Positions 37,781 to 41,955 of a stretch of 64,000 nucleotides of DNA are shown here, piece after piece. Position 1 is the stretch's first letter; each line of letters opens with the position of its first letter. Under the pieces are notes generated by a model. It had not been told where the DNA came from. It did no database searches and saw nothing but the letters and a program-made list of their open reading frames with translations. The stretch lies in the IMG/VR virus record IMGVR_UViG_3300036790_000261, positions 24,725 to 88,724 of that record. One strand, given 5' to 3'. This DNA comes from a virus (lineage: Duplodnaviria > Heunggongvirae > Uroviricota > Caudoviricetes). Position numbers and translations under genes: made by a program.

Positions 37781-39106
37781 GTGAACGACGAAGACTACGA
37801 CTGGATGGCTGGCCCTGCCACCGTCCCCCTTGAGCCTGTCCGCTCAGCCCCGCCGTGGGAGCTAGCGACGCTCACCGATACCCCCGTCGTGCCGGGCTGG
37901 CACACCGACACCATGACGATGGCCGCCCCGGGCGACCTGAAGGAGAACGACGATGATACTGCTGCCCGTCGGAGTGACGATCGCGGTCTACTCCGTGCTC
38001 GTGCTCGGGCTCGCCGCTCGCAGGTTCGCCCGGTGGACGCGCCGGATGTGGGCACCCGTACCCTGACGGTTATCGTCCCGGCGTATAACGAGGCGGCCGG
38101 GCTGCCGGAGACGCTGACCTCGGTGATGCGCCAGACCGAGGCGGCTGACCGGGTCCTGGTGGTTGACGACGGCAGCAGTGACGGCACCGCCGAGGTCGCC
38201 CTGGCCTACGGGGCTGAGGTACTGCGCCGGGACCAGTCGTCGGGCAGCAAGTCAGCAGCACTCAACTACGGGCTGCTGGAGTGCGACACCGACCTGGTGC
38301 TGAACGTGGACGGCGACACGGTTATCGCCGACAACTACGTCAAGCTGGTTAAAGCGGCATTCGCCGACCCGATGGTCGCCGTCGCCGCCGGGTCAGTCGG
38401 GGTGTGGAACCCCAAGGGCATCCTGCAGCGCGGGCGCCAGGCGGAGTACCTGCTTAGCTTCCACCTGTTCCGGCCGGTTCAGAACGCCTGGGGATCGCCC
38501 TTGGTGTGCTCGGGCGCGGCATGCGCCTACGACCGTGAGCCATTGGCTGCCGCGGGCGGGTTCCCGGATGACACCGTCGGGGAGGACATGGACTACACCT
38601 GGCGGATGATGCTCGCCGGGCGCAAGGCGGTGTACGTCGCCGGGGCTGAGTGCTACGCCATCGACCCGAAGACGACCGCGCAGCTGCGCACCCAGTTGTG
38701 GCGGTGGATGTCCGGCTACTTCCAGTGCCTGCGACTGCACTGGCGGGAGATCCTCCGGCACAAGAAGCTGCTGGGCTTGCTGGCGGTGCTGTCCGTCATG
38801 GACCTGCTCAGCCTCCCGCTGTGGCTAGCGACCCCGTTCGCGGTAACCGGCAGCGGGCGGGAGATCGCCGAGACGGCACTGCTCTCGCTGGTCGGCACCG
38901 ACCTGCTGATCTCACTGCCTGTCGTCCTAGTCGGCGCGGCCCGGCGCAAGATCAGCATCTGGTGGACGCTAGCGAGCTTCCCGTGCATCTGGGTGCTGCG
39001 GGCGTTCAACGCCTACTACTTCACCAAGGCAATGATCTGGGAGCTGGCCCTCGTCCCGTGCGAGTGGAAGACCAGCCTGTCCGTCTTCAAGAAAGGCCAC
39101 GCGTAA
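37781..39106 (+). CDS. processive family-2 glycosyltransferase (NodC/chitin/hyaluronan-synthase-like) with C-terminal TM helices
   Basis: LTVIVPAYNE, DGD, and the QLWRW (QxxRW) motif, followed by three or more hydrophobic helices. Confidence 0.7.
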   Translation: MNDEDYDWMAGPATVPLEPVRSAPPWELATLTDTPVVPGWHTDTMTMAAPGDLKENDDDTAARRSDDRGLLRARARARRSQVRPVDAPDVGTRTLTVIVPAYNEAAGLPETLTSVMRQTEAADRVLVVDDGSSDGTAEVALAYGAEVLRRDQSSGSKSAALNYGLLECDTDLVLNVDGDTVIADNYVKLVKAAFADPMVAVAAGSVGVWNPKGILQRGRQAEYLLSFHLFRPVQNAWGSPLVCSGAACAYDREPLAAAGGFPDDTVGEDMDYTWRMMLAGRKAVYVAGAECYAIDPKTTAQLRTQLWRWMSGYFQCLRLHWREILRHKKLLGLLAVLSVMDLLSLPLWLATPFAVTGSGREIAETALLSLVGTDLLISLPVVLVGAARRKISIWWTLASFPCIWVLRAFNAYYFTKAMIWELALVPCEWKTSLSVFKKGHA

Positions 39107-39108
39107 AC

Positions 39109-39630
39109 ATGAAGTACACAATCACCGTCCTGCAAGACGACATCGACAAGGGCGTACCCAGCAGTGCCAGAAAGTGCGCTATCGCCCTCGCCGCTAAGCG
39201 CGAGCTGTTCGTTGACGACCTCTGCGTCAACGGCCTGGGCATCGAAACCCCCACAGAACGCGGCAGGCTGCCCTCCGAAGCTCGGGCCTTCATCCCGAAG
39301 TTCGACCAGAAGCTGCCCGTCGAGCCGTTCAAGTTCGAGATCGACATGGGGCCCAAGCCCCCGGTTATGGCGTATCAGGGGCAAGATCCGTACTACAACG
39401 ATTACCAGAAGCTTGTCGATTACCAGAAGCTTGTCGTAGGCGGCTTCGACACGCTCAAGTACGAGCCGTTCACGTTCGACGCGTTCGACGCGATCCAGGA
39501 CGACTACGCCAAGCACACCGAGCCGTTCCAGCCCAAGTACACCGCGCACGCCTCGAACGAGTACGTCAACGACATGATCCCGTCGTTCGCGCCGGGTGGC
39601 CCGGTCCAGGTCCAAGGGGGCACAGCGTGA
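39109..39630 (+). CDS. hypothetical protein (contains an 18-nt perfect tandem duplication, DYQKLV x2)
   Basis: ATG 3 nt after the GT2 stop. The tandem duplication is at about 39403-39438. Confidence 0.45.
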   Translation: MKYTITVLQDDIDKGVPSSARKCAIALAAKRELFVDDLCVNGLGIETPTERGRLPSEARAFIPKFDQKLPVEPFKFEIDMGPKPPVMAYQGQDPYYNDYQKLVDYQKLVVGGFDTLKYEPFTFDAFDAIQDDYAKHTEPFQPKYTAHASNEYVNDMIPSFAPGGPVQVQGGTA

Positions 39631-40577
39631 AACTTCTCCTACGGCGCCTGACCGTGCTCACGCTCGCCGCGGTTCTCGTCGCCGGGCTCGGTTCCCTGGT
39701 GGCCTGGAAGCTCGGCAAGTTCAGCGGCACCCCGGTTACCGCTTCTGCCAGCGCCGCTAGCGTCTTCAGCCAGCAGGCGTACCTTGCCAGTAGTAACTGG
39801 CAGCAGGGTACGGCTCTTAGCAACGCGAGTGCGGTGCCGCCGGACGGCAAGTGGCCGGTTACCCTGCCGAAGGTCGCCAAGGGCCTGCCGGTGCTGGACA
39901 ACAGCTGCTCGAACGGCTACGTCACGTTCACGTTCGACGACGGGCCGGACCAGTACACGCTGCCGCTGGCGGCGGAGCTGCTGGCGGAGCACGTCCCGGC
40001 GGTGTTCTTCGAGATCGGCGACAAGGTGGCGGAGAACCCGGGCATCACGAGGCTGCTGGCGAAGAACCACTTCGTGATCGGGAACCACACCTACAACCAC
40101 GAGGACCTGACCGGGGCCGCGAACAAGACCAAGCCGCTGACCGCTGCCCAGGTAGCGACGGAGCTGACCCGGGCAACCGCGGCGATCGTCACGGCCGGGG
40201 CACCGGTTCCTACCCTGTGGCGGCCTCCGTACGGTGACGTCAACACAGCGTACGCCGCGGTCGCGAAGAGCCTCGGCTTGCGGCTGGTGATGTCCTGGTC
40301 AAACGACGGGACGATCATCGACAACGAGGACTGGACGAACGCCCCGGCGGCGAAGATCGTCAGCAGTGTCACCCGCTCAGCCGTGCCCCTGCGCAACGGG
40401 GTGATCGTCGCCGGCCACGACGGCATCGGGAACACGGTGAACACCGTCAAGGCGATACCGGAGATCGTCGCGTTCATGAACAGGCACCACCTGTGCGCCA
40501 CCGCTAAGGTTCGCCCGGACGCAACCGGCGCGGTGCTCACCGGGGGCACGGCGCCTACGGGTAACGCCGGCGGCTGA
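39627..40577 (+). CDS. polysaccharide deacetylase (NodB-homology/CE4) with an N-terminal signal/TM
   Basis: NodB motifs TFDDGP and HTYNH(E)D. An N-terminal hydrophobic leader. Confidence 0.7.
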   Translation: MKLLLRRLTVLTLAAVLVAGLGSLVAWKLGKFSGTPVTASASAASVFSQQAYLASSNWQQGTALSNASAVPPDGKWPVTLPKVAKGLPVLDNSCSNGYVTFTFDDGPDQYTLPLAAELLAEHVPAVFFEIGDKVAENPGITRLLAKNHFVIGNHTYNHEDLTGAANKTKPLTAAQVATELTRATAAIVTAGAPVPTLWRPPYGDVNTAYAAVAKSLGLRLVMSWSNDGTIIDNEDWTNAPAAKIVSSVTRSAVPLRNGVIVAGHDGIGNTVNTVKAIPEIVAFMNRHHLCATAKVRPDATGAVLTGGTAPTGNAGG

Positions 40578-40593
40578 GGTCAGCAGAAGGCGA

Positions 40594-41472
40594 ATGCTCG
40601 CCCTGGTGGCGGGTGCGGCAGTGAGTACAGTACTGAGAAGCGACGACTCCTGGAGGAGCAGCATGCCCCGCACCCGTCACCCGCATCCACGGCCGAACCC
40701 GCACCCGGGGCCGCACCCCCACCCGCATCCTCAGCCGAAGCCGCCCGTCCCCCCGGTTACCCCGCCCCCGGTGCCGCCGACTCCTCCTGCCGGGCAGTAC
40801 CTGTGGAACCCGTCGTTCGCCGGGGCGGCCGGGACGCTGCCGAGCACCGCGGACTGGAATTTCATCACCGGGGCGGGCGCGGAGGTCGGCGGGAACAACG
40901 AGACCGAGACCTACGTCAAGTCAGCCAGCAACTCTTACCTGGACGGCAACGGGAACCTGGTTCTCGCGGTCACCAAGGGGCTGAACAGCGCCCGGCTGAC
41001 CAGTAAGTTCAGTGTCGGGCCGGGTACCTCCTGGGAAGCCGAGATCACGCTGGACAACGTGCAGGGCTGCTGGCCGGCGTTCTGGTTCATGAGCACGACG
41101 GCCGGGCCGTACCCGAAGAACTGGTGCGAGGTCGACGTCTGCGAGAGCTACGGCGAGGGCATCGTTGACAGCACCGTCTGGAACGGCAACGCCAGCACCG
41201 GCGTGTCAGACTCCCAGTGGGCGACGGACAGCAAGCCGCACGTCTTCCGGATGGACAACGCGGGCACCTCGATCTCGGTGTACCGCGACAACGTCCTGGT
41301 GAACACGGCGAGCGCGAAGAACTGCTCACCGTGGCTGTACGGCAACGCCGAGCTGTTCTGCATCCTGAACATCGCCACCGACGGCACCGGGACGCAGAAC
41401 GTCAACCCCAACCCGGCGGACCTGCCGTCCACGATGACCGTCGGGTACGTCCGCGCCTTCGAGATGGCGTAG
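40594..41472 (+). CDS. secreted GH16-family glycoside hydrolase with a Pro/His-rich linker
   Basis: Signal-like N-terminus, an HPHP/PPVP linker, and the catalytic ExDxxE motif EVDVCE. Confidence 0.55.
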   Translation: MLALVAGAAVSTVLRSDDSWRSSMPRTRHPHPRPNPHPGPHPHPHPQPKPPVPPVTPPPVPPTPPAGQYLWNPSFAGAAGTLPSTADWNFITGAGAEVGGNNETETYVKSASNSYLDGNGNLVLAVTKGLNSARLTSKFSVGPGTSWEAEITLDNVQGCWPAFWFMSTTAGPYPKNWCEVDVCESYGEGIVDSTVWNGNASTGVSDSQWATDSKPHVFRMDNAGTSISVYRDNVLVNTASAKNCSPWLYGNAELFCILNIATDGTGTQNVNPNPADLPSTMTVGYVRAFEMA

Positions 41473-41502
41473 CCGGGGCCATACCGCTGGCTAAGCACAC
41501 CC

Positions 41503-41955
41503 GTGTCAACGCCCCGCTCCCCGCTACTCCTAGGAGATCTCATGCTCAAGAAACTGCTCGCCGTCGCTACCGCGGCGCCCCTCGTAGCGCTCGGCGTTCA
41601 GGTGACTGCCAGCGCCGCGGTCAGGCCGAAGCCGCTGCTCGTGTGCACGGCTACCGTCTCGAGTCAGCACCCGGTGGACTACAGCACGGTTGTCACGACT
41701 GTACGCGTCGGGGCTGCCGGGATAAAGACGGCGGTGACGGCTAATTACAAGACCGTGCGCACCACCATGACGGGCGTCTCTGTCCTTCAGCCTGTCGGTG
41801 ACATGCGTTTTGCGTACCTCGCGCACGCCCCGTTCAAGATCAGCGACGCCAAGCCGGGCTACAAGGTACAGGTGAACGCGGTGGTGAGCCGTCCGGGGTG
41901 GCGCTCGGGTAGCTGCTCGACCTGGTTCATCCCGCAGGCGAAGCCGAAGCGCTAA
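41503..41955 (+). CDS. secreted hypothetical protein
   Basis: Signal peptide MLKKLLAVATAAPLVALGVQVTASAA. Confidence 0.5.
   Translation: MSTPRSPLLLGDLMLKKLLAVATAAPLVALGVQVTASAAVRPKPLLVCTATVSSQHPVDYSTVVTTVRVGAAGIKTAVTANYKTVRTTMTGVSVLQPVGDMRFAYLAHAPFKISDAKPGYKVQVNAVVSRPGWRSGSCSTWFIPQAKPKR

What the first reader, a model, noticed from the sequence alone, without database searches (positions are those of the whole stretch)
37781..41955. Phage-encoded polysaccharide module: a processive QxxRW GT2 synthase, a NodB-type deacetylase, a secreted GH16 hydrolase and a secreted protein
The GT2 (QLWRW motif, C-terminal TM helices) resembles NodC, chitin synthase and hyaluronan synthase enzymes, which polymerise and export a glycan. 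The adjacent CE4/NodB deacetylase (TFDDGP, HTYNH) would de-N-acetylate it, making chitosan or a PNAG-like polymer. The GH16 (EVDVCE) and the signal-peptide protein are secreted. The combination suggests the phage makes or remodels a surface polysaccharide on the infected cell, for example for superinfection exclusion or biofilm/cell-wall remodelling. It is not a classical lysis cassette.
Basis: partly seen in the sequence, partly recalled or inferred. Interest (0 to 1): 0.7.

Follow-up and report, generated by a model that had tools for sequence, protein, structure and literature searches.

The report
Phage operon for a surface polysaccharide
An uncultured 122-kb phage of filamentous actinobacteria carries a compact five-gene operon (a membrane sugar-polymer synthase, an outside-facing deacetylase, a beta-glycanase and two unknown proteins) that most likely coats or remodels the infected cell's surface, much as algal giant viruses do.

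Summary

Corrections to the observation:
- A fifth gene (39109-39630, 173 aa, unknown fold) lies between the GT2 and the CE4.
- The GH16 is laminarinase-like.
- In this copy no start codon precedes the GH16's twin-arginine export motif, so its secretion is uncertain. Relatives carry complete Tat leaders.

The window is phage DNA (NCBI contig DASXDZ010000073.1, binned as Trebonia sp.). The module sits in the same slot, between an exonuclease gene and an SNF2 helicase gene, in at least five related phage lineages.

In one sister phage a PgaC-like GT2 and a PgaB-like deacetylase replace the GT2-CE4 pair, while the same GH16 is kept. The closest characterised homologue is Streptomyces MatB, a fused CE4-GT2 that makes PNAG. 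I therefore think the module most likely makes a partly de-N-acetylated GlcNAc polymer outside the infected cell (confidence about 0.5).

The sugar, the export step and the GH16 substrate remain inferred. The GT2 has only about three transmembrane helices, and this GH16 clade also pairs with cellulose-synthase-like GT2s elsewhere.

No deposited phage genome has a comparable module. Chlorovirus hyaluronan and chitin synthases are the nearest viral precedent.

The parts
37781..39106 (+). Membrane GT2 glycosyltransferase with a cellulose-synthase-like fold (441 aa). Residues 1-90 are a disordered, phage-specific N-terminal extension carrying a PPWE motif. The GT-A domain spans 95-293, the QLWRW interface helix 299-327, and about three C-terminal TM helices 329-424.
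   Evidence: Pfam. Invariant D, DxD, ED and QxxRW. AF2 model with pLDDT 81. Foldseek top hits are BcsA, CvHAS, PcManGT and chitin synthases. It is 37% identical to the GT2 domain of a MatB-type protein.
39109..39630 (+). 173-aa cytoplasmic protein of unknown function. It starts 2 nt after the GT2 stop and overlaps the CE4 start by 4 nt. The conserved N-domain covers residues 1-82; the C-terminal half is variable and repetitive.
   Evidence: phrog_19191 (unknown function) at 1.9e-12. Present in L002-L004 and L177, absent in L001, L006 and L093. The AF2 N-domain has pLDDT above 94 but no PDB neighbour.
39627..40577 (+). CE4 (NodB-homology) deacetylase of 316 aa, with an N-terminal signal anchor and all five catalytic motifs.
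   Evidence: PF01522 at 89.2 bits. Best solved relative is S. lividans CE4 2cc0 (2e-24), followed by chitin and peptidoglycan deacetylases. The motifs are invariant in phage and bacterial orthologues.
40582..40662 (+). Remnant or alternative leader of the GH16 gene. Codons for SRRR (40582-40593) lie upstream of ATG 40594, which opens MLALVAGAAVSTVLRSDDSWRSS. This is homologous to the complete Tat leaders of relatives.
40594..41472 (+). GH16 endo-beta-glycanase. It is 292 aa from ATG 40594 and 269 aa from ATG 40663, which has the strongest Shine-Dalgarno sequence. A His/Pro-rich linker precedes the catalytic domain with EVDVCE.
   Evidence: PF00722. Actinobacterial beta-1,3-glucanases 2hyk and 3atg at E 1e-22 to 1e-24. 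75-86% identical orthologues in L091, L093 and P0121-P0125. A 32% identical second GH16 type fills the slot in L001-L006.
41542..41955 (+). Small Sec-secreted protein of unknown function (137 aa from ATG 41542; 150 aa from GTG 41503). It is specific to this phage.
   Evidence: Leader and Shine-Dalgarno sequence. No Pfam, PHROG, NCBIfam or PDB match. No homologue in related loci.
36315..37688 (+). Q/P-rich 457-aa protein that always lies directly upstream of the GT2 in related phages. Whether it belongs to the module is uncertain.
   Evidence: Conserved position and 40-77% identity in L001, L002, L006, L091 and L093. No family or PDB match.

Best explanation
The region is a phage-borne, self-contained exopolysaccharide module of the synthase-dependent kind. 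It sits among the replication genes of an uncultured ~122-kb tailed phage of filamentous actinobacteria.

Shown:
- The GT2 is a membrane-embedded glycosyltransferase with the catalytic signature and fold of the processive beta-glycan synthases.
- The CE4 is a catalytically complete metal-dependent deacetylase anchored on the outer face of the membrane.
- The GH16 has an intact catalytic EXDXXE.
- The five genes form one tightly packed unit.
- The slot is conserved across a phage lineage.

Inferred:
- During infection the GT2 polymerises a GlcNAc-containing beta-glycan from UDP-sugar at the inner face of the membrane and hands the chain outward.
- The CE4 removes part of the N-acetyl groups outside, giving a cationic PNAG- or chitosan-like coat.
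- The GH16 acts as the system's endo-glycanase. It either trims or releases the new polymer or cuts a host beta-glucan layer.
- The altered surface then changes phage adsorption (exclusion of other phages, or progeny not wasted on doomed cells) and/or the aggregation of infected hyphae.
For: Domain and motif evidence.

Fold: the AF2 model (pLDDT 81) matches BcsA, Chlorella-virus HAS, PcManGT and chitin synthases best. Among viral proteins its full-length structural neighbours are nearly all giant-virus synthases.

Family scores: PgaC/IcaA is the top NCBIfam model for the window GT2 (105 bits). It is also top for the same family's stand-alone copies in another phage and in Streptomyces.

Conserved synteny: exo...Q/P-rich-GT2-(orf173)-CE4-GH16...SNF2 occurs in L001/L011, L002-4, L005/6 and L093. 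The catalytic motifs are kept in all of them.

Non-orthologous displacement: sister phage L091 shares exonuclease (80%), SNF2 (71-75%) and GH16 (81%) with the window. In the same slot it has a different GT2, 27% identical, whose only strong hit is PgaC_IcaA (1e-25). Beside that GT2 lies a secreted 363-aa protein that hits PgaB (2.4e-12), IcaB, and the solved BpsB, PgaB and IcaB chains.

Fusion evidence: MatB-type proteins join a CE4 domain (28% identical) and a GT2 domain (37% identical) in one chain. MatAB makes PNAG on Streptomyces hyphae (PMC5972031).

Other contexts: the GT2+CE4 pair also occurs in two bacterial contigs. GH16s of this clade are exported (Tat leaders) and lie beside synthase-type GT2s in three further contexts.

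Viral precedent: chloroviruses express HAS or CHS early and cover the host with fibres. They also encode an early beta-1,3-glucanase and a polysaccharide deacetylase (PMC5408694).
Against: - All equivalog scores fall far below the curated cut-offs: PgaC 105 against 422, NodC 69 against 550, NodB 82 against 240.
- The GT2 has no N-terminal TM helix and only about three C-terminal ones, too few for a BcsA/HAS-type channel in a monomer.
- Its best solved sequence relative is PcManGT, which has three TM helices and works in N-glycan biosynthesis.
- MftF, a glucosyltransferase, scores almost as well as PgaC.
- The GH16 is closest to beta-1,3-glucanases. Elsewhere its clade sits next to CelA-like GT2s, so the polymer could be a beta-glucan and the CE4 could have another target.
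- The closest cellular GT2 homologues (42-48%) stand alone, with no CE4 or GH16 within 6 kb.
- This window's GH16 lacks a start codon before its RR motif.
- No partner of the PgaD, IcaD or MatA kind was recognised.
- There are no expression or biochemical data.
Confidence: 0.5

Rival explanations
1. The GT2 is not a polymer-exporting synthase. It is a lipid- or oligosaccharide-directed glycosyltransferase with a PcManGT-like minimal cellulose-synthase fold. It decorates a membrane-linked acceptor, such as a polyprenyl-linked glycan, a glycolipid or a teichoic-acid precursor, and so masks or alters a phage receptor, as Gtr-type conversion systems do. The CE4 then edits that glycan or the wall.
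For: - The best solved sequence relative is PcManGT (1.6e-14), with BcsA behind it at 2e-9.
- PcManGT has three TM helices and acts in N-glycan biosynthesis.
- The window GT2 has only about three C-terminal TM helices and no N-terminal one.
- The family occurs alone, without CE4 or GH16, in Streptomyces, Nonomuraea and Actinoallomurus, and in an unrelated phage.
- There are weak PHROG hits to GtrB-like conversion proteins.
Against: - QxxRW is canonical and invariant in this family, whereas PcManGT aligns with a degenerate AWRIR.
- Profile scores favour PgaC/IcaA, NodC and CelA over GtrB- or DPM-type enzymes.
- Replacement of the slot by a PgaC-like/PgaB-like pair in L091 points to a polymer system.
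Confidence: 0.17
2. The exported enzymes (CE4, GH16 and the small secreted protein) form an exit or entry accessory set. They strip or loosen the host's own outer glycan layers, such as CslA-type beta-glucan, PNAG or acetylated wall polymers, so that virions can escape from or reach hyphae. The GT2 is functionally separate.
For: - The GH16 is closest to endo-beta-1,3-glucanases.
- Leaderless and Tat-exported versions of the same GH16 coexist among relatives, as is common for lysis enzymes.
- No recognisable endolysin was found in the 64-kb window.
- Chloroviruses use glycanases for entry and exit.
Against: - The genes lie among replication genes on the same strand, far from the tail and small-TM genes at 27-31 kb.
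- The GT2, orf173 and CE4 genes are translationally coupled.
- GT2-CE4 adjacency is conserved in phages and in two bacterial loci that lack a GH16.
- GH16s of this clade are repeatedly next to synthase GT2s.
- CE4 enzymes are not lytic.
Confidence: 0.15
3. The module makes a beta-glucan (cellulose-, curdlan- or mixed-linkage-like) rather than a GlcNAc polymer. The GH16 is its cognate hydrolase, as BcsZ is for BcsA. The CE4 acts on something else, such as peptidoglycan GlcNAc or O-acetyl groups.
For: - The GH16 is laminarinase-like.
- The same GH16 clade sits beside CelA-like GT2s in L178 and L179 (TIGR03030 at 1e-50 and 3e-41).
- The best solved CE4 relative is an acetyl-xylan esterase.
- MftF (a beta-1,4-glucosyl enzyme) and CelA models also hit the GT2.
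Against: - The window GT2 scores higher on PgaC/IcaA (105 bits) and NodC (69) than on CelA (53).
- L091 and L178 place the same GH16 next to PgaC-like/PgaB-like pairs.
- The MatB fusion links this GT2 type to CE4.
Confidence: 0.12
4. The module is a NodC/NodB-like pair that makes short chito-oligosaccharide signals rather than a surface polymer.
For: The NodC model scores 3e-19 and the NodB model 2.8e-23. Few TM helices fit a NodC-like topology.
Against: - Both scores are far below the cut-offs of 550 and 240.
- NodB is cytoplasmic, whereas this CE4 has an N-terminal membrane anchor or signal.
- No NodA-like acyltransferase or exporter is present.
Confidence: 0.03
5. The genes are bacterial, or the GT2 glycosylates virion proteins, as in some mycobacteriophages.
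For: The contig is binned as a Trebonia sp. MAG. Glycosyltransferases of actinophages are often linked to virion glycosylation.
Against: - Phage structural and replication genes flank the module on both sides, and the same synteny occurs in an IMG/VR contig and in 85-117-kb relatives.
- The GT2 is membrane-embedded and its partners are extracytoplasmic, whereas virions assemble in the cytoplasm.
Confidence: 0.03

Closest known systems
Streptomyces MatAB (MatB is a fused extracellular CE4 + intracellular GT2; product PNAG; PMC5972031)
   Same: - The host phylum is the same.
- The GT2 domain is 37% identical and the CE4 domain 28% identical to a MatB-type protein.
- The topology logic is the same: GT2 inside, CE4 outside.
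- The CE4 is of the chitin/PgdA/NodB type in both.
   Different: - Here the two activities are on separate genes.
- The GT2 lacks the N-terminal TM segments.
- No MatA or IcaC-like gene is recognised.
- A GH16 and two unknown proteins are added.
- The module is carried by a phage.
PgaABCD / IcaADBC PNAG systems
   Same: - A synthase and an extracytoplasmic de-N-acetylase sit in one operon.
- PgaC/IcaA is the best-scoring curated model.
- Sister phages L091 and L178 carry PgaC-like/PgaB-like versions in the same arrangement.
   Different: - Scores are far below the equivalog cut-offs.
- There is no PgaD or IcaD, no porin, and no PilZ or c-di-GMP element.
- The hydrolase is a GH16 rather than a GH153 domain.
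Chlorovirus hyaluronan synthase / chitin synthase with an early beta-1,3-glucanase and a polysaccharide deacetylase (PMC5408694)
   Same: - The virus encodes a membrane GT2 synthase, and CvHAS is among the top structural matches.
- The same three enzyme classes are encoded by one virus.
- In chloroviruses the product coats the infected cell early, and its role is still unknown.
   Different: - The host and virus are eukaryotic (giant virus).
- The genes are scattered, not in an operon.
- HAS has N-terminal TM helices.
- There is no sequence orthology.
PcManGT (PDB 6yv7), minimal cellulose-synthase-like GT2
   Same: It is the best solved sequence relative (1.6e-14). It has a similar size and a similar layout: GT-A domain, interface helix, and about three TM helices.
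   Different: It is an archaeal GDP-mannose enzyme of N-glycan biosynthesis with a degenerate QxxRW.
Phage Gtr-type O-antigen conversion (GtrA/B/C)
   Same: A phage GT2 changes the host surface glycan and so affects adsorption. There are weak PHROG hits.
   Different: GtrB is a non-processive polyprenyl-phosphate glucosyltransferase with two TM helices and no QxxRW. It needs a flippase and a GT-C partner, and no deacetylase or glycanase is involved.
Streptomyces CslA-GlxA-CslZ (a cellulose-synthase-like enzyme with its hydrolase)
   Same: A synthase is paired with a glycanase acting on a hyphal surface beta-glycan. GH16s of this clade sit next to CelA-like GT2s in L178 and L179.
   Different: The window GT2 is not CelA-like (53 bits). 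There is no GlxA or LPMO, and the hydrolase belongs to a different GH family.

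Membership tests
Processive membrane GT2 synthases (BcsA / HAS / chitin synthase / NodC / PgaC type) | GT-A domain with D, DxD, (T)ED and QxxRW motifs | tested here: met
   D130, D177xD179, E268-D269 and Q305xxR308W309 are invariant in 30 family members. QLWRW aligns to the QRGRW of BcsA.
Processive membrane GT2 synthases (BcsA / HAS / chitin synthase / NodC / PgaC type) | Overall fold: cytosolic GT-A domain, amphipathic interface helices and a TM bundle | tested here: met
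   AF2 model with pLDDT 81. Foldseek top hits are BcsA, CvHAS, PcManGT, XlHAS1 and chitin synthases, at E 1e-16 to 1e-11.
Processive membrane GT2 synthases (BcsA / HAS / chitin synthase / NodC / PgaC type) | A TM channel built from six or more helices, including helices N-terminal to the GT domain (or a partner subunit supplying them) | tested here: not met
   There is no hydrophobic segment before residue 330. Only about three helices (329-354, 360-388, 402-424) follow the QxxRW helix. No PgaD- or IcaD-like partner was recognised.
Processive membrane GT2 synthases (BcsA / HAS / chitin synthase / NodC / PgaC type) | Processive elongation coupled to export | not testable with these tools
   This needs biochemistry.
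PgaC/IcaA equivalog (TIGR03937) | Score at or above the curated cut-off of 422.3 bits | tested here: not met
   105.1 bits. It is the best of 23 families but far below the cut-off.
NodC / NodB (TIGR04242 / TIGR04243) | Scores at or above 550 and 240 bits, and a cytoplasmic NodB | tested here: not met
   69.1 and 82.5 bits. The CE4 has an N-terminal membrane anchor or signal at residues 8-26.
CE4 / NodB-homology deacetylases | PF01522 above the gathering score, and the five motifs with the Asp-His-His metal triad and the catalytic Asp and His | tested here: met
   89.2 bits against 23.1. TFDDG, HTYNH, RPPYG, DNEDW and GHDG align with those of SlCE4 2cc0 and are conserved in all orthologues.
GH16 | PF00722 above the gathering score, and the catalytic EXDXXE | tested here: met
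   32.4 bits against 22. EVDVCE aligns to the EIDIME of 2hyk. The motif is kept in both GH16 types found in the phage lineage.
GH16_3 laminarinase subfamily | The WPA...WXX...WPX pattern (PMC6827312) and beta-1,3-glucanase activity | tested here: inconclusive
   WPAFWFM is present, but the third motif reads YPK(N)W rather than WPX. The best solved relatives are GH16_3 and mycobacterial GH16s. dbCAN subfamily HMMs were not available, and activity cannot be tested here.
Tat-exported protein (for the GH16) | An S/T-R-R-x-F/L-L motif and a hydrophobic region downstream of a start codon | tested here: not met
   In the window SRRR is encoded at 40582-40593, but no ATG, GTG or TTG lies upstream in frame (stop at 40477). 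The feature is met in relatives L091, L093, L006, P0123, P0126, P0128 and L178.
Synthase-dependent exopolysaccharide operon (Pga/Ica/Mat/Bcs-like) | Synthase, extracytoplasmic modifying enzyme and glycoside hydrolase encoded together | tested here: met
   The gene order is GT2, orf173, CE4, GH16, with gaps or overlaps of +2, -4 and +16 nt. It is conserved in five phage lineages.
Synthase-dependent exopolysaccharide operon (Pga/Ica/Mat/Bcs-like) | A co-polymerase or regulatory subunit, or c-di-GMP control | tested here: inconclusive
   There is no PilZ or GGDEF domain and no riboswitch. orf173 and the Q/P-rich protein are of unknown function.
Classical phage lysis cassette | A peptidoglycan hydrolase adjacent to a holin | tested here: not met
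   None of the five proteins has a peptidoglycan hydrolase domain. The module lies among replication genes.

The most novel reading that the evidence does not exclude
A lineage of ~85-122-kb actinobacterial phages keeps a dedicated genomic slot for a complete 'make, edit and cut' exopolysaccharide system. Its synthase and deacetylase can be swapped for non-orthologous PgaC/PgaB-like versions, while an exported GH16 stays. This would be the prokaryotic counterpart of chlorovirus hyaluronan and chitin fibre production: the phage coats the infected hypha with its own partly deacetylated GlcNAc polymer. A shared N-terminal PPWE peptide on unrelated membrane glycosyltransferases of these elements would then be a common docking or control tag.
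Probability: 0.4. Interest if true: 0.75.

Novelty: new variant of a known kind. Interest (0 to 1): 0.6.

Why it matters
Phages are known to edit host surface glycans, for example by O-antigen conversion or with depolymerases. I found no report of a tailed phage that carries its own synthase-type exopolysaccharide system. The searches behind that statement were:
- 50,697 deposited phage genomes, which hold no comparable CE4 in an actinophage and no GH16 match at all;
- the literature searches.

If the module works as inferred, three things follow:
- Virus-made extracellular polysaccharide is not peculiar to algal giant viruses, where its purpose has stayed unresolved because those viruses cannot be manipulated genetically (PMC5408694).
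- Actinomycete genetics could offer a tractable route to that question.
- There would be a new way for phages to alter aggregation, adhesion and phage susceptibility of soil mycelial bacteria.

The module also singles out three things for study. One is an uncharacterised, widespread family of ~345-aa 'minimal' QxxRW GT2 enzymes. Another is a GH16 clade repeatedly coupled to synthase genes. The third is a case of slot conservation with non-orthologous replacement.

Tried and rejected
Searches that gave nothing useful:
- DNA search of 37000-43000 against deposited phages found no match.
- The simple promoter and terminator scan of 35000-43600 gave nothing above shuffled expectation.
- Rfam found only four tRNAs and no riboswitch near the operon.
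- orf173, the secreted 150-aa protein and the Q/P-rich protein had no PDB sequence match. The confident N-domain model of orf173 had no Foldseek neighbour in the PDB.
- The search for an endolysin in the window found none. Pfam and PHROG scans of 30 ORFs turned up only an HNH endonuclease, SPFH, an Rv2632c-like protein and DUF7873.
- Literature searches for phage-encoded PNAG or EPS synthases, and for Streptomyces phages with GT2, deacetylase and glucanase genes, found no precedent. Virome CAZyme catalogues list GT2, CE4 and GH16 only as separate families.
- The PcManGT paper itself was not held. I used what citing papers say about it.

Ideas considered and set aside:
- I considered a hyaluronan-like product with a GH16 hyaluronidase. 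The only GH16 hyaluronidases on record in the roadmap paper are fungal GH16_1 enzymes, so I dropped the idea.
- I considered a CE4-GH16 frameshift fusion to explain the missing start codon. I rejected it as unnecessary, because an internal start with a strong Shine-Dalgarno sequence exists.
- CE4 linkage is not general for the whole GT2 family. The closest genome-encoded homologues and the distant ones lack a neighbouring CE4.

Full report
**What is there**

Between 37781 and 41955 the + strand carries five ORFs with very high third-position G+C (0.81-0.91). They are separated by +2, -4, +16 and +30 nt.

- The first is a 441-aa GT2. It scores PF13641 104.7 bits, PF00535 97.4 bits and PF13632 75.9 bits, all far above the curated cut-offs.
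It matches only phrog_19191, a family of unknown function.
- The third is a 316-aa CE4 (PF01522, 89.2 bits).
- The fourth is a GH16 (PF00722, 32.4 bits against a cut-off of 22).
- The fifth is a small protein with a Sec-type leader and no match in any library.

The observation therefore holds.

**It is phage DNA**

- The window holds a tape-measure protein, a head-tail adaptor, very large glycine-rich tail proteins, an HNH endonuclease, an exonuclease, an SNF2 helicase, a DNA methylase and four tRNA genes.
- The GT2 is identical to a protein on NCBI contig DASXDZ010000073.1 (122,349 bp, assembly GCA_036490375.1, binned as Trebonia sp.). The window corresponds to about 33.6-97.6 kb of that record.
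- No deposited phage genome resembles the region at the DNA level.
- Related uncultured contigs of 85-117 kb share the order exonuclease, small ORF, (vWA-like), Q/P-rich protein, GT2, (orf173), CE4, GH16, then SNF2 helicase. One of them is an IMG/VR viral contig.

**The GT2**

- A 30-member family alignment shows invariant D130, D177xD179, E268-D269 and Q305xxR308W309, plus a conserved C-terminal (E/K)KGH.
- The AlphaFold model has mean pLDDT 81. Residues 1-90 are disordered. It shows a GT-A domain, a long interface helix carrying QxxRW, and about three further membrane helices.
- Its best structural matches are E. coli and Rhodobacter BcsA, Chlorella-virus hyaluronan synthase, PcManGT, Xenopus HAS1 and chitin synthases.
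- Among predicted viral structures, the full-length neighbours are almost all giant-virus synthases.
- By curated profiles, PgaC/IcaA scores best (105 bits), then MftF (88), NodC (69) and CelA (53). All are far below the equivalog cut-offs.

Two points weaken the reading 'polymerise and export'.
- There is no TM helix N-terminal to the GT domain, and only about three follow it.
- The best solved sequence relative is PcManGT (1.6e-14). That enzyme has three TM helices and works in archaeal N-glycan biosynthesis.

Against the second point, PcManGT aligns with a degenerate QxxRW, whereas the motif here is canonical and invariant.

**The CE4**

All five CE4 motifs align with those of Streptomyces lividans CE4 (2cc0, 2e-24). 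The next solved relatives are chitin deacetylases and peptidoglycan GlcNAc deacetylases. The motifs are unchanged in every phage and bacterial orthologue. A 19-residue hydrophobic segment at positions 8-26, preceded by basic residues, places the domain outside the membrane.

**The GH16**

The closest solved proteins are actinobacterial endo-beta-1,3-glucanases (2hyk, 3atg and others; E 1e-22 to 1e-24) and mycobacterial GH16s. The catalytic EXDXXE is aligned. The third element of the GH16_3 signature reads YPK rather than WPX.

Export in this copy is uncertain.
- Relatives encode clear Tat leaders upstream of a conserved internal MPRTRHP. Examples are L091 (GTG...SRRKALGLLLAAAATVVAG), L093, L006, L002, P0123, P0126 and P0128. 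L001 and L178 add a lipobox.
- In the window the SRRR codons lie just upstream of the first start (ATG 40594), with no ATG, GTG or TTG before them in frame.
- The internal ATG 40663 has the best Shine-Dalgarno sequence (GGAGG, 6-nt spacing).
- Gene callers disagree. PGAP gives 233 aa, and another caller starts at 40663.
- This copy may therefore be leaderless, or the gene may give two isoforms.

**Comparative evidence on function**

(a) The module has its own evolutionary history.
- Against L002, the flanking exonuclease and helicase are 90-97% identical, but the GT2 is 65%, the CE4 60% and the GH16 33% identical.
- Against L093, the flanks are 70-79% identical, while the GT2 is 64%, the CE4 78% and the GH16 75% identical.
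- Two GH16 types occupy the same position.

(b) Sister phage L091 shares the exonuclease (80%), SNF2 helicase (71-75%) and GH16 (81%) with the window.
- In the same slot it has a different GT2, only 27% identical, whose single strong curated hit is PgaC_IcaA (1e-25).
- Next to that GT2 is a secreted 363-aa protein. It matches PgaB (TIGR03938, 2.4e-12) and IcaB, and among solved chains BpsB, PgaB and IcaB.
- A function kept through non-orthologous replacement is the strongest clue that the slot exists to make and de-N-acetylate a PNAG-like polymer.

(c) MatB-type actinobacterial proteins fuse a CE4 domain (28% identical to the window CE4) to a GT2 domain (37% identical to the window GT2). MatAB produces PNAG on Streptomyces hyphae, with the GT2 inside and the CE4 outside (PMC5972031).

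(d) The split GT2+CE4 pair also occurs in two bacterial contigs, one of them flanked by transposases. In contrast, the closest homologues in GTDB genomes stand alone. These are 42-48% identical and come from Actinoallomurus, Streptomyces, Nonomuraea, Actinomadura and Streptosporangiaceae. An unrelated 60-66-kb phage also carries the GT2 alone, among replication genes.

(e) GH16s of the window's clade repeatedly sit beside synthase-type GT2s.
- A 167-kb contig (L178) has the order GH16, PgaC-like GT2, PgaB-like protein, GH16, PMT_2-like protein, CelA-like GT2, GH16.
- An 86-kb contig (L179) has a CelA-like GT2 followed by a GH16.
- The GH16 is therefore tied to polysaccharide synthases in general. 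This fits a cognate-hydrolase role, but it leaves its substrate open: the phage's own polymer or a host beta-glucan.

**Most likely mechanism**

I read the module as a phage-borne synthase-dependent exopolysaccharide system.
- The GT2 builds a GlcNAc-containing beta-glycan at the membrane.
- The anchored CE4 partly de-N-acetylates it outside.
- The GH16 acts as the endo-glycanase of the system.

The following are shown: the enzyme classes, intact catalytic residues, topology cues, operon structure and conservation. The following are inferred: the sugar, export through or alongside the GT2, the GH16 substrate and the biological pay-off.

The position among replication genes on the same strand argues for expression before lysis. 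That timing matches the chlorovirus case. There, HAS or CHS is transcribed within minutes and fibres cover the cell. An early beta-1,3-glucanase and a polysaccharide deacetylase are also encoded, and the purpose is still debated: blocking attachment, clumping, or uptake by grazers (PMC5408694). I put this reading at about 0.5.

The rivals are:
- a PcManGT-like lipid- or oligosaccharide-directed GT that masks a receptor (0.17);
- an exit or entry glycanase set unrelated to the GT2 (0.15);
- a beta-glucan rather than a GlcNAc product (0.12);
- Nod-factor-like oligomers, virion glycosylation or mis-binned bacterial DNA (0.03 or less each).

**Novelty**

Each enzyme belongs to a known family. GT2, CE4 and GH16 have been listed separately in virome CAZyme catalogues.

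What I could not find anywhere is a tailed phage with a synthase, deacetylase and glycanase operon.
- The 50,697 deposited phage records contain only distant GT2s (30% identity or less).
- They contain no actinophage CE4 of this kind.
- They contain no GH16 match at all.
- The literature searches found no precedent.

I therefore class it as a new variant of a known kind: Pga/Ica/Mat-type systems, and virus-encoded polysaccharide synthases.

**Limits**

- No signal-peptide, TM or dbCAN predictor was available.
- All functional statements rest on homology, a predicted structure and gene context.
- 58 kb of the source contig were not examined.
- The host assignment is by metagenomic binning only.

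Noticed in passing
window 33167-34999 (+): The Cas4/PD-(D/E)XK-like exonuclease gene carries a ~339-aa intein at residues 58-396. It starts CLSGDT, ends LMTGN followed by Cys, and gives a weak LAGLIDADG_3 hit. The 271-aa orthologue in L002 lacks it, and the junction GHE|CDRQVV is exact. Sister phage L091 instead has a LAGLIDADG insertion in its SNF2 helicase (966 aa against 612).
   Followed up: partly
window 37850 (GT2 residues ~24-27); L001, L002, L006, L093 GT2 N-termini; L178 4605 and 8025: A PPW(E/D) peptide, as in APPWELATLTD and LPPWEIETRVDL, occurs at the N-termini of the phage GT2s. It also occurs at the N-termini of two unrelated membrane glycosyltransferases of contig L178, one PgaC-like GT2 and one PMT_2-like protein. 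It occurs in no other coding frame of these loci, and the bacterial copies lack the extension. It could be a shared docking or regulatory tag.
   Followed up: partly
window 40480-40665; L001 10155-10305: The GH16 Tat leader is encoded, but in this window and in L001 no canonical start codon lies upstream of the twin arginines. A conserved internal start (MPRTRHP) has a strong GGAGG in the window, L091 and L093. This may mean dual isoforms or decay of the leader.
   Followed up: partly
window 42336-42494 (-): A 52-aa ORF with two hydrophobic helices lies on the opposite strand just downstream of the module. Called genes of 49 aa occupy the same place in L002, L006 and L176. Its function is unknown; it could be holin-like or a small membrane regulator.
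   Followed up: no
window 30899-31417 (-) and 31509-32447 (-): An Rv2632c-like protein and an SPFH/Band_7 membrane-scaffold protein are conserved on the opposite strand about 5 kb upstream of the module in most related phage loci (both in the L002-type loci; one or the other on record in L091 and L093).
   Followed up: no
window 29233-29820 (+): An HNH homing-type endonuclease (phrog_374, 1e-37) is inserted between the last tail gene and two single-TM proteins (29979-30365 and 30356-30727). It is absent at that position in L002.
   Followed up: no
window 36315-37688 (+): A 457-aa protein has extremely Q/P-rich termini and a conserved central domain (residues ~78-240). It always lies directly upstream of the GT2 in related phages. 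It has no family or PDB match.
   Followed up: partly
window 39109-39630 (+): The N-domain of orf173 (residues 1-82, invariant TITVLQDDIDxG...VEPFKFE) is modelled with pLDDT above 94 but has no Foldseek neighbour in the PDB. Stand-alone ~100-aa versions exist in metagenomes. The C-terminal half varies in length through repeats (DYQKLV x2).
   Followed up: partly
L178 3710-11890 (JGI Ga0673037_0000038, 167 kb): This is a larger glycan locus. The order is Tat-lipoprotein GH16, PgaC-like GT2, PgaB-like protein, GH16, PMT_2-like GT-C, CelA-like GT2, GH16. The nature of the element (phage or otherwise) was not established.
   Followed up: partly
window 18076-18149, 51829-51901, 52302-52375, 56442-56517: There are four tRNA genes: Arg-ACG, Thr-GGT, Gln-CTG and Met-CAT.
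   Followed up: no
window 1-64000: No recognisable endolysin or integrase domain was found among about 30 ORFs scanned. A PHROG 'transposase' family hit occurs at 58379-59401 (-). The lysis genes and the lifestyle of the phage remain unknown.
   Followed up: partly
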